64,000 bases of DNA from the human T2T-CHM13v2.0 reference genome, Homo sapiens: the NCBI RefSeq assembly GCF_009914755.1, contig NC_060925.1; one strand, written 5' to 3'. The notes beneath the pieces were generated by a model. It worked only from the letters and a program-made list of their open reading frames with translations. It was not told the origin of the DNA and searched no databases. Made by a program: the position numbers and the translations under genes. The first letter of the stretch is position 1. The number at the start of each line of letters is the position of its first letter. Positions 33,300 to 48,759 of this stretch are shown here, piece by piece.

Positions 33300-33772
33300 G
33301 CTCTGGATGTAATCAGGATGTAACGCGGGGGAAGCCAGTCAGGAGCAAAGCCAAGGTTAATACCAAGGATGGAGCTTCAAGGAGTTAGAAGGCAGGGTCC
33401 GGGCTGGGGGGCTGGAAACCTAGGTTCAGTGCCTTCCCAGCCCTCACTATCCCTAGGCAGTGCTGTTCCTCATGAGCCTCTGCCCCTGTGGCAGCCCACA
33501 GCCAGGCTAAGACAGGGCTGGGGACAGCATTCCTCTCCCACAGCCCTCCTTCCTCCCTGGTTCTGGTCTGAAAACCCAGTCACCCTTCACTCACCTAGCT
33601 AGGTACCAAGGGTAGGACTTATTACCGAGTGCCCTGCCATCTGCCCCAAGGTAGTAAATGAGGGCAGAGGAAAATTGCAACCTCCCCATGTTAAATGTGT
33701 AAAAGGAAAAAGACTCTGAGGCCACAAGGCTTGAGCGGATCACAGGGAGCAAGCACCAGACTGAGGGGAGGC
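33300..33772 (+). promoter_or_regulatory. Decayed copy of the renin proximal promoter and 5'UTR
   Basis: CCCTTCACTCACCTAGCT...TGCCCTGCCATCTGCCCCAAGGTAGTAAATGAGGGCAGAGGAAAATTGCAA...TGTGTAAAAGG...CCAGACTGAGGGGAGGCATGG resembles the recalled human REN promoter. HOX/PBX-like site at 33652-33661 and TATA position at 33698-33704 are both mutated. The 5' boundary is approximate. Confidence 0.85.
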
Positions 33773-33871
33773 ATGGAGCAGTGGAGGAGGAGACTCCTTG
33801 CTGGGGACTCCTGCTGGAGCTCTGCGGCCCCTGCACCTTCAGTCCCAATGCAGACACTGGTGCCTTCAGAC
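33773..33871 (+). pseudogene. REN: REN-like exon 1 (signal peptide), frameshifted, donor site deleted
   Basis: MEQWRRR, then a +2 frameshift, then PCWGLLLELCGPCTFSPNADTGAFR, versus renin MDxWxRMPRWGLLLxLWGSCTFGLPxDT..F(K/R)R. No GT follows. Confidence 0.9.
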
Positions 33872-35991
33872 CAGCCAGAGATGGGGTGGCAGGGGTACAA
33901 GTGTTCCCACCTTCCTAACATCCCCAGTTTTTGGATATGTGATGTCATCCAATCCTCATGACCCAGACAAGGAGGATCCCATTCCAAAAGGTCAAGTGCC
34001 AAAGTCACACAGCAAATAGATCGGTGGCACATAGGTAGGCCTAATAGCTGTGTCTTTTGATTCCTGCCTGGAGGCCCTGCTAGGCACCCCTTGCTAGGCA
34101 TTGTGGGAAACTCAGAGATGTTTGAGACATGCCCCTTGCCCTCAAGGAGTTTGCAGCTTAGCTAGTAAAAAGGGCACGCTTAAGATGGTAGCATCCACTC
34201 CTGCCTGTGAGAGCCTCCAGCCTGCCAGCCTGCCCTATGGATTTTGGGTTTGTCAACACCCACATGTCACAAGCCAATTTCTTGAAACAAAAAAAAAAAA
34301 AAGAGAGAAGAAAGAAAGAAAAGGAGGTGGGGCATGGGCACAGTTAGCTCTACCAGAGAAACAGCACAATACAGTGGTTAAAAGTAAGGCTTGTAGAGTT
34401 CAATGTTCTTGGTTTAAACGTCATTCCACTAGCAGAACTAATGAGGCCTGGAACCATGGGTAAGTTCCTTAACTGCTCAAGTCTCAGTTCATTCATTTCC
34501 AAAACAGGGATATTGGCAGCACCTGCTCCATGGGTTGCTTTGAAGATGTAATGAGATAATGTATGTAAAGCTCTTAGCGTGCTGCAGCGAACATTGTAAG
34601 AACTCTGCTGTCATTAGTACTAAGGGCAGATTATCATAAATGTTAAGATGTAAAAGGCAGCAAAAAGGCAAAAGAAAGGATTAAGGCAGCCTAAAGGGAG
34701 AAGAAAAATTATCCGTTCTGTGCCAAGTCCTATGGGAACAAGCAATTCATTAAGGCTGGAGGAAGGAAGGAGGCAGGGTTGGAAGAAGATCTCAGAGAGA
34801 AAGAGGATTTCAGTTTGGGGAGTGCAAATGGGATCAGAAGACCTGAAGGTAAGTAAGCGGGAAGGTTTTTTAGTAGTCATGGTTGCTAAGCCTGTAAAAT
34901 GCTCCAGATTTCACGGGATCTTTTCTCATGTCTCATCTTCAATCACACTCCCAACAATCCAACATTCCCATTTTCCAATGAGGATATTGAGTCTCAGGGA
35001 AGTTGAGCGGCAAACCTTGGGTCATAAGTAAGAGTCTGAGCCTGAACACACACCTGACTTTTGTTTCCAAAGCCTCCTTTCCCTGCCCCAGGTCCCCAGG
35101 GAAAAATTGTTAGGCTGGGGGTAGGATGAGGGGGTGGGTGACCACAGGCCCAGGGCAGCCCCACCCACCTCCCTGTAAAGGTATAGGGAGGTGGAAAATG
35201 TCCTTCCTTGTTCTCTTCCAAAAGAAAAGATTCAGAAGAAAATTGGGCCAGGGGTGGAAGGGGAGTCAGGCTTTTGAAACACAGTTATAGAAATCTCTCA
35301 GCTGTTACGTGCAGAGCATCAGGCAGGGCGCTTCTTGAGATCTGCTTCCATGAACCCATTCTCAGGGTGCACTCATTGCCTTATGCACACTCAATTTACA
35401 TTGACTGAGCAGTGGGCAGCTCATTTAATCTGCACAGAGACCCTCTGAGGTAGGTGCAAATATTAAGCCCATTTTCATAGAGGTGCTTAGAAGAGGCCCA
35501 GACAGGTTAAGTTGGTCAGAATCCCACAGGTAGTAAGAGGAGGTACCTGGATTCACATGTGCCCCCTTGCCCACTACTATGCCCTCCACACCATATGGCA
35601 CCACCTCCACAAGCCTCAAGCTGTGCAGTGACAGCTGTGGGGCCCCAGGAAAAAACTGTGCAGGGGCAAAGGGAAAGGGGAGGCCAGTGTGGACGGGAAT
35701 CCTGGAAGTAAGCTTCCTAGATGAGGTACACATGCAGGGCTTTGAAGGGTTAAAGACCTGGGAGGAAAACAGGAATTGGAGAAGGAAGTGATTTTCTGAA
35801 AGGGGAATTGGCAAAAGTAAAGTTTCTGGGCAAAAGGCTGTTTGGAGTGAATAGTGGGGAATGCATCATCTTTGGGGTAAAGCCTTCTCTGACCTTCCAT
35901 CTCCCCATCCATAAGAGGAGAATAATGAAATTACCTGCGTCATGGGGAGGGTGAGAATCAAATAAGATCTTAATTGTGAAAATACTTTCTG

Positions 35992-36290
35992 TTTTTGTTT
36001 TTTTCTTCTGAGACAGGGCCTCGCTCTGGCACCCAGACTAGAGTGCAGTGGCACAATAATGGCTCACTACAGCCTTGATCTCCTGGGCTCAAGTGATCCT
36101 CCTGCCTCAGCCTCCCAAGAAGCTGGGACTATAAGCACATGCCACCTCGCCCAGCTAATTTTTTTATTTTTTGTAGAGATAGAGTCTCACTTTGTTGCCC
36201 AGGCTGGTCTAGAACTCCTGCCCTCAAGCAATCCTCCCACCTCAGACTCCCAAAATGCTGGGATTACAGGCATGAGCCACCACACTCGGC
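35992..36290 (-). mobile_element. AluJ in intron 1 of the renin pseudogene
   Basis: Reverse Alu with a perfect 15-bp TSD TGAAAATACTTTCTG. Confidence 0.92.
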
Positions 36291-46800: not shown

Positions 46801-47075
46801 CAGCCTTGAACCTTCAGGAGACAGGAACCTTTGAGGGACCTCCACATTCACATACACATCGCTGTCCCTTCTCCACCCATGGTGGGAGCAAAGCCTCCAG
46901 ACTCAGAGCTGCCCCAGCCCGGCCCATGAGCCACCCTTTGGAATTCCCTGCGCTGGGTGGAAGCTCTCACCGTCACTGCAGACCCACACAGGGAGCCTTC
47001 CCCACCTCTAGCTGAGTGCATTCTCCTGGACACAGATGTGGGCAGAGCCTCTAGGCTGATTCCCCAGCTGAATGC

Positions 47076-47433
47076 TGTATTATAGTCCGTTTTCACACTT
47101 CTATAAAGAACTACCTCAAACTGGGTAATTTATAAAGAGAAAGGGTTTAATTGACTCACAGTTCTGTGTGGCTGGGGAGGCCTCAGGAAACTTACAATCA
47201 TGGTGGAAGGCAAAAGAAAAACAAGCACCTTCTTTACAAGACGTGGGGCAAGGGAGGGAAGAACCGTCATATGCTTTTAAACCATGAAAGAACTCACTCA
47301 TTATCACAAGAACAGCATGGGGGAAACAAACTGCCCCCATGATCCAATCATCTTCACTAGGCCCCTTCCTTTACACATAGGGATTACAATTCGAGATGAG
47401 ATTTGGGTGGGGACACAGAGTCAAACCCTATCA
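47076..47433 (-). mobile_element. MSTA/THE1-type MaLR solo LTR in ETNK2-like intron 1
   Basis: TGTATT..AGTCCGTTTTCACAC...GATGAGATTTGGGTGGGGACACAGAGTCAAACCCTATCA. Confidence 0.88.
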
Positions 47434-48512
47434 CCTGCCTTCTCTGAAAAGCAGCCTTCACTGCCCACCCACCCACCCCAATCCCTTCTGGAGGCTGCCT
47501 GTGAGGAAGGTGAGCAAGGGCAGGTGAAAATTCACTGGGGGCATGCAGCTTGTGCTGGACTCTAGTAGGGGCCCCATGCTGATGGGCCTTCTGGGTGGTA
47601 GAAGCCAAGTTCTCAGGAGATTCAGCACCAAGTGCTGGCTGACAGACCTATTCTTCCTTAGGGGACAGGGATAGGGTGAGAAAGGGAGGTCGCATTTACA
47701 AAATAAAAAGCTCACATCGTTAGTAAGACTGTCAAGGCTCCAAGTAGACCTAAGGTTAGGTCAGCACTGACCTAACATGCCATCTGCCAGTCCAGCCCCT
47801 CTGAGCCTCAGTTTCCCCACCTAGAATTGGTTCACATGCTCTAAGACCCCTTCAGCTCTGTCACACTGTGCCCCATAAATTCCATGGTTCCTTCTTCCTT
47901 GTCACCCTGCCGAGAGAACCACTCTCCCATTCCGGCACCTCGTGTCTCTTCTGGAGTGGAACTCAGAGCCCTGAAATATCTCTAACCACTAAAGCTCTGG
48001 GGTGGGTGCCAGCCTTGGTACCCTGCTTGTGCTGCTGATGCTGGACAAGCAGGGCAAGAGGTAGAGCAAAGAGCACTCTGCCTGGCAAGCAGAGAGGATG
48101 CTGGTTGGGATGCACTTGTCCTTGGCCACTCCTGTTCCTCTCTAGCCACTTTTTAATTCATGGGATTTTTTTCTTTCAGGGCAGGGTTGGGAAAGTGAGG
48201 AGCACATAGAGACTTCACTCCATCAAGTGGTACAGAAATTCCTTTACTGCCAAATCCTACCCACTATGGGCAGACCTAGAAGAAGTAAGTGTGCCTGGGC
48301 TAAGTGCCATTTTGTTTTTCTTGGACTCTCTAGTCTTCCCCAAGTGTTGGGGACAGGGTAGGGCATTAAGATCAGTGCTGAGATCTTTATTAAGTGGGAT
48401 TCTGTGTGGTCATGCTTAACATTCAAATGAGCACCCTCTTTTGGGGCCAGGGAGCCATAGGCGAAAATCAGGGAGACCCTGTGCCACCCACACATGTTCT
48501 TCTCCATGCTAG

Positions 48513-48759
48513 TGCTTTACTGATGGATGCTGTCACCAACATGCCGGTGGCTTGCTATGTGTGTGACTATGTCCTGGCACATGGGGAGTGGACTGAGTTG
48601 CTGATGGACTGTGAGAATTAAGCCAGGAATTTCCAGCTGCTGCAAGCACATGGCTGTGCCTCCAAACTCTAGTGCACTTTCTAGAATGGGCTGGGCTGTG
48701 AGTACATCTAGGACATGGCGATGGGGCTTGAAGCACATCCATGGGCCCTGGCTCTTCAG
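48513..48759 (+). pseudogene. ETNK2: ETNK2-like exon 2
   Basis: CFTD(+4)AVTNMPVACYV..DYVLAHGEWTELLMDCEN*ARNFQLLQAHGCASKL*CTF*NGLGCEYI*...CTCTTCAG|gtgagc, versus RFTDGITNKLVACYVEEDMQDCVLVRVYGERTELLVDRENEVRNFQLLRAHSCAPKLYCTFQNGLCYEYMQ. Four stops. Confidence 0.95.

What the first reader, a model, noticed from the sequence alone, without database searches (positions are those of the whole stretch)
33300..48759. A fossil second renin locus: ancient duplication of the REN-ETNK2 gene pair
Seen: nine renin-like exons with introns, promoter, 3'UTR and poly(A) signal, followed ~2.3 kb later by ETNK2-like exons 1-2 on the same strand. Known: the functional human REN gene lies just upstream of ETNK2 in this orientation, and humans are usually described as having a single renin gene (Ren2 is a mouse-specific duplicate). 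Inference: this is a genomic (segmental) duplication rather than a retrocopy, and it left a second renin gene that later died. No ORF in the six-frame track shows it whole, so it is easy to miss. I cannot verify whether it is already annotated.
Basis: partly seen in the sequence, partly recalled or inferred. Interest (0 to 1): 0.95.

Follow-up and report, generated by a model that had tools for sequence, protein, structure and literature searches.

The report
Fossil duplicate of the renin locus
Between NGF and VANGL1 on human chromosome 1p13 lies a decayed copy, probably about 100 million years old, of the chromosome 1q32 block that carries the renin gene, leaving a dead second renin gene that the RefSeq gene table for this window does not list.

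Summary
Window 33.8-44.2 kb carries nine of the ten human REN exons with their introns, promoter and AATAAA. ETNK2-like exons 1-2 follow on the same strand, ending at 48,760.

It is a genomic duplicate, not a retrocopy. Non-coding DNA aligns colinearly with the REN locus (G000:C1:203.37-203.46 Mb) at about 65-76% identity.

The block is larger than reported. It runs from window 24,016 to 64,504, from inside the last KISS1 intron through REN and ETNK2 into SOX13.

The renin copy is dead:
- exon 5 is deleted
- exon 3 is split by a 355-bp repeat
- there are 12 frameshifting indels and 4 in-frame stops
- both catalytic DTG motifs are lost

It shows no trace of past constraint. It differs from the eutherian renin consensus at 36-39% of residues, equally at the most conserved sites. 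It was probably non-functional from the start.

Dating:
- it lacks the anthropoid-specific renin changes (1 shared, 32 not)
- non-coding K2P is about 0.29
- an ML tree puts it beside crown Boreoeutheria, but AU tests cannot fix the node

My estimate is about 70-130 My. Five paper searches found no description. It is a new member of a known kind.

The parts
24016..64000 (+). Whole duplicated block. It is colinear with G000:C1:203,455,881 down to 203,368,922 (minus strand of 1q32.1) and continues about 504 bp past the right end of the window.
   Evidence: Chained blastn hits at 65-76% identity. Colinear hits cover 19,992 of 26,062 nt in 24,016-50,077 and 3,823 of 5,980 nt in 58,021-64,000.
25240..25522 (+). 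Remnant of the last KISS1 exon (5' half) with its acceptor region. The left edge of the block lies in the KISS1 intron.
   Evidence: Local alignment at 58% identity to the ORF that ends in ...[24 protein letters not shown]. The first KISS1 coding exon lies about 1.1 kb outside the block.
33519..33772 (+). Homologue of the REN promoter and 5'UTR, with the TATA box mutated (TATAAAA to TGTAAAA).
   Evidence: 72.1% identity over 269 columns.
33773..33871 (+). psiREN exon 1. The ATG is kept, there are two frameshifting indels, and the donor gt is lost.
   Evidence: 69% identity; tblastn hit at 56%.
37505..37633 (+). psiREN exon 2 (propeptide), with deletions of 2, 18 and 2 nt and an in-frame stop.
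   Evidence: 60.9% identity.
38742..38772 (+). psiREN exon 3, first 31 nt.
   Evidence: 77% identity.
38773..39130 (.). Interspersed repeat, about 355 bp, inserted into exon 3 after the duplication. It is absent from REN at this site.
   Evidence: It interrupts the colinear alignment and matches several other sites in both loci on either strand. I read it as a MaLR/MLT1-type LTR from memory of its translated motif; this was not tested.
39131..39220 (+). psiREN exon 3, remainder. The first catalytic DTG reads AMG and the donor gt has become ct.
   Evidence: 79.6% identity. PDB: renins E 3e-9 to 3e-7, cathepsin D 5e-6, pepsin 2e-5, chymosin 1e-3. Pfam Asp E 2.9e-6.
39829..39948 (+). psiREN exon 4, with four indels and an in-frame stop.
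   Evidence: 66.7% identity.
40188..40226 (+). Site of the deletion that removed exon 5 (197 nt in REN) and its flanks.
   Evidence: 38 bp here stand opposite about 1.3 kb of the REN locus. No exon 5 hit by tblastn or local alignment.
41655..41663 (+). psiREN exon 6, the 9-nt mini-exon, with both splice sites kept.
   Evidence: 7 of 9 nt identical; flanks align.
42194..42311 (+). psiREN exon 7, with two 1-nt deletions, an in-frame stop, and the donor gt changed to gc.
   Evidence: 76.7% identity. PDB: renins E 5e-10 to 5e-7, next is cathepsin D at 0.013. Pfam Asp E 5.4e-4.
42684..42827 (+). psiREN exon 8. The second catalytic DTG is lost (reads GNG in the forced frame, with a frameshift).
   Evidence: 63.4% identity.
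43115..43213 (+). psiREN exon 9, no indel, donor gt changed to gc.
   Evidence: 65.7% nucleotide identity. The protein alone is not significant in the PDB: renins E 0.06-0.16.
43868..44026 (+). psiREN exon 10, with two frameshifting deletions, an in-frame stop, and the terminal TGA kept.
   Evidence: 66% identity.
44201..44206 (+). AATAAA poly(A) signal kept at the homologous place in the 3'UTR.
46616..46665 (+). End of psiETNK2 exon 1 (...LQPHWKPEQIRSK, followed by gt).
   Evidence: 73.6% identity across the exon-intron junction; ORF seen.
48513..48760 (+). psiETNK2 exon 2, with several frameshifting indels and stops.
   Evidence: 72.9% identity over 384 columns including flanks.
49727..50005 (-). 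Unique 279-bp piece of ETNK2 intron 2, inverted relative to the rest of the block and better conserved (78%). It lies just before the break.
   Evidence: Its only other genomic match is C1:203,412,121-203,412,384, in the opposite orientation.
50078..58020 (.). Filler with no unique homology to 1q32 (Alus, AT-rich DNA). It stands where about 35 kb of the parent are missing, including the SOX-type HMG-box exon and, by inference from its position, the remaining ETNK2 exons.
   Evidence: Gap in the chain between q32rc 68,496 and 103,225. HMG-box exon at C1:203,387,868. The positions of the later ETNK2 exons were not mapped.
58021..64000 (+). Homologue of DNA beyond ETNK2, upstream (in SOX13's own direction) of the SOX-type HMG-box exon, so inside SOX13 if recalled coordinates are right. 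No coding exon was detected.
   Evidence: Colinear hits at 65-76% identity. tblastx found only repeats and non-coding matches.

Best explanation
A stretch of chromosome 1q32.1 was copied as genomic DNA and inserted into the NGF-VANGL1 gene desert on 1p13.2. The stretch ran from inside the last intron of KISS1, through all of REN and ETNK2, into SOX13. It measures 87 kb in today's parent locus and 40.5 kb in today's copy.

The copy has since decayed as neutral DNA:
- It lost about 35 kb through a rearrangement next to a small inversion. The loss includes the SOX-type HMG-box exon and, by inference, the rest of ETNK2.
- It lost REN exon 5.
- It took up Alus and an older repeat.
- It accumulated substitutions and indels at the same rate in exons and introns.

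The renin copy is therefore an unprocessed pseudogene that most likely never worked. It has no function that the sequence shows.

Shown: the homology, its extent, the disabling lesions, and the lack of constraint. Inferred: the direction (1q32 as parent), the age (about 70-130 My, near the placental radiation), and death at or soon after birth.
For: **Non-coding homology**
- Colinear non-coding homology runs from window 24,016 to 64,504.
- The chained colinear hits give 23,796 non-exon sites (this total includes a few Alu-to-Alu hits outside the block), with p = 0.235 and K2P = 0.288.
- Within one unbroken 4.1-kb alignment across introns and exons, K2P is 0.272.
- Apart from one interspersed repeat, the REN locus is the only other genomic match.

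**Renin identity**
- Exon 3 and exon 7 peptides hit renins best in the PDB.
- The ML tree places the copy inside mammalian renins.
- At therian-derived sites the copy carries the therian state at 19, the outgroup state at 1, and neither at 6.

**Disabling lesions**
- Exon 5 is deleted and a repeat sits in exon 3.
- There are 16 indels, of which 12 shift the frame, and 4 in-frame stops.
- Both DTG motifs are gone and four donor sites are lost.

**No sign of constraint**
- Exon K2P is 0.373 over 989 sites, not lower than in introns.
- The copy differs from the eutherian consensus at 116 of 307 sites, and at 64 of 166 sites that are at least 95% conserved.
- Four stops in about 340 readable codons fit the neutral simulation (4.0-7.2 per 406 codons, about 3-6 when scaled).

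**Age**
- No Alu was seen at the same place in both copies; the colinear hits stop at Alus.
- At 45 sites fixed in anthropoids, the copy has the anthropoid state at 1, the general eutherian state at 32, and neither at 12.
- It is 60.8% identical to cat renin but only 47.6% to human REN.
- The careful ML tree reads (Afrotheria,(Xenarthra,(copy, Boreoeutheria))), with supports 94/86 and 88/80.

**Direction**
- Read-through gene models fuse kisspeptin with renin in a turtle, Got1 with renin in a crane, and Got1 with kisspeptin with renin in a monkey.
- So the 1q32-type gene order is old.
Against: - AU tests could not exclude three other placements, so the tree does not date the event on its own:
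  - beside anthropoids (delta lnL 9.68, p = 0.118)
  - outside all living eutherian renins (delta lnL 3.61, p = 0.368)
  - outside all therian renins (delta lnL 6.89, p = 0.182)
- Properly polarised eutherian-derived sites are few: 2 derived, 0 ancestral, 3 neither.
- The upper age limit rests on non-coding alignability and on neutral-rate figures that I recall rather than computed.
- Exons are more diverged than introns (0.373 against about 0.29). I attribute this to the fast anthropoid REN lineage and to CpG-rich exons, but did not test it.
- The pseudo-protein was built by forcing the copy into the human REN frame, which could bias it.
- No other mammalian genome could be examined.
- I could not check GENCODE or Ensembl pseudogene tracks.
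- Present-day transcription or regulatory use was not tested.
Confidence: 0.85

Rival explanations
1. The duplicate renin gene worked for a long time, as a true second renin in early placentals, and was inactivated only later.
For: - The whole gene was copied, with promoter, all exons and the poly(A) signal.
- ATG, TGA, AATAAA and most acceptor sites are still recognisable.
Against: - Exons are not better conserved than introns.
- Residues conserved in at least 95% of eutherian renins are changed as often (38.6%) as all residues (37.8%).
- The amino-acid divergence of the copy's lineage (36-39%) equals or exceeds the neutral expectation for 0.20-0.25 substitutions per site.
- There are 12 frameshifts, 4 stops and a lost exon.
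Confidence: 0.08
2. The copy is a relic of a much older paralogue, either pre-therian or from the vertebrate whole-genome duplications. In that case it belongs to an ancient paralogous region that also holds NGF.
For: - The AU test does not reject a position outside living therian renins (p = 0.182).
- From memory, aspartic proteases and neurotrophins sit together in several paralogous regions.
Against: - About 77% of the copy's sequence between 24,016 and 50,077 still aligns with REN introns and intergenic DNA, at K2P about 0.29. From general knowledge, neutral DNA does not stay alignable for 160-500 My.
- The copy carries therian-derived renin states at 19 of 20 decisive sites.
- The ML tree nests it within placentals.
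Confidence: 0.03
3. The duplication is a primate (haplorhine or anthropoid-stem) event that only looks old.
For: The AU test does not reject the copy as sister of anthropoids (p = 0.118). Both branches are long.
Against: - The copy shares 1 of 33 decisive anthropoid-fixed states.
- Non-coding K2P of about 0.29 is about twice what I recall for 60 My of human-lineage neutral change.
- No Alu was seen at the same place in both copies; the colinear hits stop at Alus.
- An older repeat entered exon 3 after the copy was made.
Confidence: 0.03
4. The block is dead as a set of genes, but parts of it have been taken over as regulatory DNA or as a non-coding RNA in the NGF-VANGL1 desert. This is compatible with the best explanation.
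For: A few pieces are clearly better conserved than the 69% background:
- 46,161-46,251 at 84.8%
- 29,685-30,279 at 76% over 603 columns
- 49,727-50,005 at 78%
.
Against: - Conservation of the functional 1q32 partner alone would raise identity in the same way.
- No Rfam family matches the window.
- No gene or functional element is listed in the hub's table.
Confidence: 0.07

Closest known systems
Human REN at 1q32.1 (the parent locus, G000:C1:203.419-203.431 Mb)
   Same: - Same exon-intron layout, including the 9-nt mini-exon.
- Same promoter, 3'UTR and poly(A) signal positions.
- Same neighbours and orientation: KISS1 upstream, ETNK2 downstream.
   Different: - About 69% nucleotide identity.
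- Exon 5 is missing and both catalytic Asp motifs are lost.
- 12 frameshifts and 4 stops.
- The forced-frame protein is only 47.6% identical to human REN and closer (about 60%) to carnivore, ungulate and bat renins.
Mouse Ren2 (strain-specific duplicate renin gene; recalled, not examined here)
   Same: A genomic duplication that carries a whole renin gene with its flanks.
   Different: From memory, Ren2 is recent, tandem, rodent-specific and functional. This copy is old, lies on the other chromosome arm, and is dead.
Other dead aspartic-protease loci on 1p13 (matches at C1:110.50 Mb and C1:111.40 Mb; from memory these are the chymosin and a pepsinogen-C-like pseudogene)
   Same: Intron-bearing A1-peptidase relics on the same chromosome arm, with stops inside exons.
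   Different: - Those score over the Pfam cut-off genome-wide, whereas this copy did not appear among the 71 matches.
- From memory, they are unitary losses of genes that work in other mammals, not copies of REN.
Segmental duplications as catalogued in the human genome (at least 1 kb and at least 90% identity; definition recalled)
   Same: Duplicative transfer of tens of kilobases of genomic DNA, carrying whole and partial genes, to a new site on the same chromosome.
   Different: At about 69% identity it lies far below the catalogue threshold, so such tracks would not list it.

Membership tests
Unprocessed (duplicated) pseudogene | Keeps the parent's introns and exon order | tested here: met
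   Nine of ten REN exons are in order, with alignable introns.
Unprocessed (duplicated) pseudogene | Homology extends into promoter, UTRs and flanking intergenic DNA | tested here: met
   Promoter 72% and 3'UTR 69% identity. The block runs from 24,016 to 64,504.
Unprocessed (duplicated) pseudogene | Disabling mutations in the reading frame | tested here: met
   12 frameshifting indels, 4 stops, exon 5 deleted, and a repeat in exon 3.
Processed pseudogene (retrocopy) | Introns absent; homology limited to the mRNA | tested here: not met
   Introns and intergenic DNA are homologous.
Renin (functional A1 aspartic peptidase) | Two catalytic Asp-Thr-Gly motifs | tested here: not met
   The first reads AMG. 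The second is lost, reading GNG with a frameshift.
Renin (functional A1 aspartic peptidase) | Open reading frame across all exons | tested here: not met
Renin lineage (as opposed to cathepsin D/E, pepsin, chymosin, napsin) | Best sequence match and tree position are with renins | tested here: met
   PDB searches of exons 3 and 7, the trees, and 19 of 20 decisive therian-renin states. Exon 9 alone is not significant.
Catalogued segmental duplication | At least 90% identity between copies (recalled definition) | tested here: not met
   65-76% identity.
Paralogue from the vertebrate whole-genome duplications | Homology limited to coding sequence; split predates tetrapods | tested here: not met
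   Non-coding homology; nested within mammalian renins.

The most novel reading that the evidence does not exclude
Early placental mammals carried a second, complete REN-ETNK2 locus next to NGF. The human relic is a roughly dated snapshot of ancestral placental renin, taken before the burst of change on the anthropoid lineage. In some living lineage the orthologous copy may have stayed intact, or parts of it (the better-kept upstream and ETNK2-promoter pieces) may now serve as regulatory DNA in the NGF-VANGL1 desert.
Probability: 0.1. Interest if true: 0.6.

Novelty: new member of a known kind. Interest (0 to 1): 0.42.

Why it matters
- **Gene count.** Humans are described as having one renin gene. 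This relic shows that the locus was once duplicated as a block with parts of KISS1, ETNK2 and SOX13.
- **Blind spot in annotation.** The window did not appear among the 71 genome-wide Pfam Asp matches, and RefSeq lists no gene here. Old unprocessed pseudogenes can therefore be missed by routine annotation.
- **A testable marker.** The relic is a rare genomic change whose presence or absence between NGF and VANGL1 can be checked across mammals.
- **An outgroup for renin.** It offers an independent outgroup for reconstructing ancestral placental renin. That includes the 9-nt mini-exon, which was already present with its splice sites when the copy was made.
- **Limits.** It does not change renin physiology.

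Tried and rejected
- **Pfam scan of ORFs.** A scan of 54 plus-strand ORFs found Asp in only 2, the exon 3 and exon 7 pieces. No kinase family was found for the ETNK2 pieces.
- **Genome-wide Pfam search.** The Asp profile gave 71 matches and none lay in the window.
- **Choline/ethanolamine-kinase profile.** The genome search did not complete because the machine was busy. I did not repeat it and mapped the ETNK2 exons from ORFs and alignment instead.
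- **Exon 9 peptide against the PDB.** Not significant: renins at E 0.06-0.16 and a chance beta-catenin hit at 0.018.
- **First exon alignment script.** I set the end gaps the wrong way round and discarded the output. It was redone.
- **tblastx for SOX13 coding exons in 57-66 kb.** Only Alu and non-coding matches.
- **Long inverted arms around the small inversion.** None found.
- **Rfam over the window.** No match.
- **Three AU tests.** None rejected its alternative, so they do not date the event.
- **Unpolarised eutherian-versus-marsupial count.** The 28:2 count looked decisive. It loses its force because the marsupial stem is far longer than the eutherian stem (0.48 against 0.07). The polarised counts are too small to help.
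- **First quick tree.** It used unnamed cluster representatives and served only to pick out marsupial sequences.
- **Flanks.** Wider flanks of both loci could not be fetched.

Full report
**What is there**

A stop-to-stop ORF listing of 33-49 kb already shows renin-like peptides. One is ...[30 protein letters not shown]. I rebuilt the human REN gene from the same genome, at G000:C1:203.419-203.431 Mb on the minus strand. The rebuild gives ten exons, including a 9-nt mini-exon, and a 1221-nt CDS with no internal stop.

Aligning each exon with its flanks to the window places nine of the ten exons in order on the plus strand:

| REN exon | Window position | Identity |
|---|---|---|
| E1 | 33,773-33,871 | 69% |
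| E2 | 37,505-37,633 | 60.9% |
| E3a | 38,742-38,772 | 77% |
| E3b | 39,131-39,220 | 79.6% |
| E4 | 39,829-39,948 | 66.7% |
| E6 (9 nt, ag/gt kept) | 41,655-41,663 | 7 of 9 nt |
| E7 | 42,194-42,311 | 76.7% |
| E8 | 42,684-42,827 | 63.4% |
| E9 | 43,115-43,213 | 65.7% |
| E10 (TGA kept) | 43,868-44,026 | 66% |

Exon 5 (197 nt) is gone. Window 40,188-40,226 stands opposite about 1.3 kb of REN. Exon 3 is split by a repeat of about 355 bp that REN lacks at this site.

The promoter aligns at 72% identity, with TATAAAA changed to TGTAAAA. The 3'UTR aligns at 69%, with AATAAA kept at 44,201. About 2.4 kb further on lie two ETNK2 remnants:
- the end of ETNK2 exon 1 at 46,616-46,665, reading ...HWKPEQIRSK followed by gt
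- exon 2 at about 48,513-48,760, at 73% identity with frameshifts and stops

**Is it renin?**

- The exon 3 peptide hits rat, mouse and human renins in the PDB at E 3e-9 to 3e-7. Cathepsin D follows at 5e-6, pepsin at 2e-5 and chymosin at 1e-3.
- The exon 7 peptide hits renins at 5e-10 to 5e-7. The next family is cathepsin D at 0.013.
- The exon 9 peptide alone is not significant.
- In trees the copy sits inside mammalian renins.
- It carries the therian-derived state at 19 of 20 decisive sites.

**It is a genomic duplicate, and a larger one than reported**

I ran blastn of the window and its flanks against 130 kb of 1q32.1 (C1:203,350,001-203,480,000, reverse-complemented). This gives a single colinear chain of non-repeat hits at 65-76% identity. 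The chain runs from window 24,016 to 64,504 and corresponds to C1:203,455,881 down to 203,368,922. One alignment runs unbroken for 4.1 kb across exons 6-10 and their introns.

Colinear hits cover 19,992 of 26,062 nt between 24,016 and 50,077. Searching the whole genome with window 40,615-44,734 finds only the REN locus as a long match, at 72% and 70%. It also finds many copies of one old interspersed repeat at 43,295-43,481. The continuous alignments there suggest that REN carries this repeat at the same place.

- **Left edge.** It lies in the KISS1 intron. The last KISS1 exon, recognised by ...[11 protein letters not shown]..., has a weak remnant at about 25,240-25,522 (58% identity). The first coding exon lies 1.1 kb outside the block.
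- **Right part.** Window 58,021-64,504 matches DNA beyond ETNK2, upstream of a SOX-type HMG-box exon on the opposite strand. From recalled coordinates that gene is SOX13. No coding exon was found in this part.
- **Missing segments.** Three parent segments are absent from the copy, about 9 kb, 5.7 kb and 35 kb long. The last holds the HMG-box exon and, by inference from its position, the rest of ETNK2. It is replaced in the window by about 8 kb of Alus and AT-rich DNA.
- **Small inversion.** Just before that break, a unique 279-bp piece (49,727-50,005) is inverted and is 78% identical. No long inverted arms flank it.

**Direction of the duplication**

The 1q32 genes are intact (REN is open). 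Read-through gene models fuse neighbouring genes in other species:
- kisspeptin with renin in a turtle
- Got1 with renin in a crane
- Got1, kisspeptin and renin in a monkey

The GOLT1A-KISS1-REN order is therefore old, and the 1p13 block is the derived copy.

**The renin copy is dead and shows no sign of ever having been constrained**

- Over 989 aligned exon sites, p = 0.288 and K2P = 0.373.
- There are 16 indels, of which 12 shift the frame, and 4 stops in the REN frame.
- The first DTG reads AMG and the second is lost. Four donor sites are gone.
- Non-coding sites in the colinear chain give p = 0.235 and K2P = 0.288 over 23,796 sites. That total includes a few Alu-to-Alu hits outside the block. 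The 4.1-kb alignment gives 0.272. Exons are thus no better kept than introns.
- Read in the REN frame with X at each break, the copy differs from the consensus of 35 non-anthropoid eutherian renins at 116 of 307 sites (37.8%). At sites that are at least 95% conserved it differs at 64 of 166 (38.6%). Cat, pig and colugo renins differ from that consensus at 3-5%.
- A neutral simulation on the REN CDS gives 33-39% amino-acid change for 0.20-0.25 substitutions per site. It gives 4.0-7.2 stops per 406 codons over the range simulated (0.12-0.25 substitutions per site).

This is the pattern of a sequence that drifted from the start.

**Why exons exceed introns**

Part of the reason is visible in the data. 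Human REN itself differs from the eutherian consensus at 22.9% of sites, and the anthropoid stem is very long (0.37) in the tree.

**Age**

- *Shared changes.* At 45 sites where three anthropoids agree and differ from at least 80% of other eutherians, the copy has the anthropoid state at 1, the general state at 32, and neither at 12. It is 60.8% identical to cat renin and 47.6% to human REN.
- *Repeats.* No Alu was seen at the same place in both copies, since the colinear hits stop at Alus. An older repeat entered exon 3 after the copy was made.
- *Tree.* The careful IQ-TREE of 55 rows recovers the accepted mammal tree. It places the copy as sister of crown Boreoeutheria, inside placentals (94/86 and 88/80; eutherians plus the copy against marsupials 93/77).
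- *AU tests.* They do not reject the copy beside anthropoids (p = 0.118), outside living eutherian renins (p = 0.368), or outside therian renins (p = 0.182).
- *Polarised sites.* Eutherian-derived sites are too few to help: 2 derived, 0 ancestral, 3 neither.
- *Older bound.* This rests on the non-coding DNA. K2P of about 0.29 means about 0.15 per lineage, with about 77% of the sequence still alignable. I recall about 0.17 substitutions per site for the human lineage since the human-mouse ancestor.

Together this points to about 70-130 My, around the placental radiation.

**Literature and annotation**

Five full-text searches found no paper describing the relic. Their terms were:
- 'renin pseudogene'
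- renin + pseudogene + ETNK2
- 'renin gene' + 'segmental duplication' + NGF
- a six-term aspartic-protease evolution query
- candidate symbols

For a 2026 survey of vertebrate aspartic proteases (PMC13389413) I saw six passages around my search terms. It has no occurrence of NGF or ETNK2, and it treats renin as one clade. I did not open its supplements. The hub's RefSeq table lists no gene in the window. I could not check GENCODE, Ensembl or the self-chain tracks.

**Verdict**

This is a real and, as far as I could check, undescribed relic, but of an ordinary kind. It is an ancient intrachromosomal duplication that carried a whole renin gene and decayed.

Noticed in passing
REN proteins; parent locus G000:C1:203.419-203.431 Mb: Anthropoid renin sits on a very long stem (0.37 changes per column). 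Human REN differs from the eutherian consensus at 22.9% of sites, against 3-5% for cat, pig and colugo. This suggests a burst of change in the anthropoid lineage.
   Followed up: partly
Proteins P0132, P0389-P0399: Opossums (Monodelphis, Gracilinanus) have many distinct 'renin-like' entries at 58-84% identity to each other, while Australian marsupials show one 'renin' each. This looks like a didelphid expansion of renin genes.
   Followed up: no
window 49,727-50,005: A unique 279-bp piece of ETNK2 intron 2 is inverted relative to the rest of the block. It is better conserved (78%) than the 69% background and sits next to the 35-kb loss. No long inverted arms flank it.
   Followed up: partly
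window 29,685-30,279; 46,161-46,251; 28,519-28,575; 30,436-30,549: These pieces are clearly better conserved than the background: 76% over 603 columns, then 84.8%, 84% and 80%. The first lies about 10 kb upstream of the REN start in the parent, near where I recall the distal renin enhancer. The second lies just upstream of ETNK2 exon 1.
   Followed up: no
window 43,295-43,481: An old palindromic interspersed repeat matches about 40 other genomic sites at 69-94% identity (mostly 71-74%), on both strands. The continuous alignments suggest that the REN intron carries it at the same place, so it would predate the duplication.
   Followed up: partly
window 41,655-41,663: The 9-nt REN mini-exon and both its splice sites are kept in the relic. 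The mini-exon therefore already existed when the copy was made.
   Followed up: yes
G000:C1:110,499,022-110,506,270 (+) and C1:111,397,709-111,404,555 (-): Two other aspartic-protease loci on 1p13 show stops inside some exon matches in the genome-wide Pfam search. From memory these are the chymosin and a pepsinogen-C-like pseudogene.
   Followed up: no
window 50,078-58,020: This non-homologous filler is AT-rich (GC 31-41%, strong A over T skew on the plus strand) and holds several Alus. It may be an old LINE insertion. It stands where the parent's 35 kb are missing.
   Followed up: no
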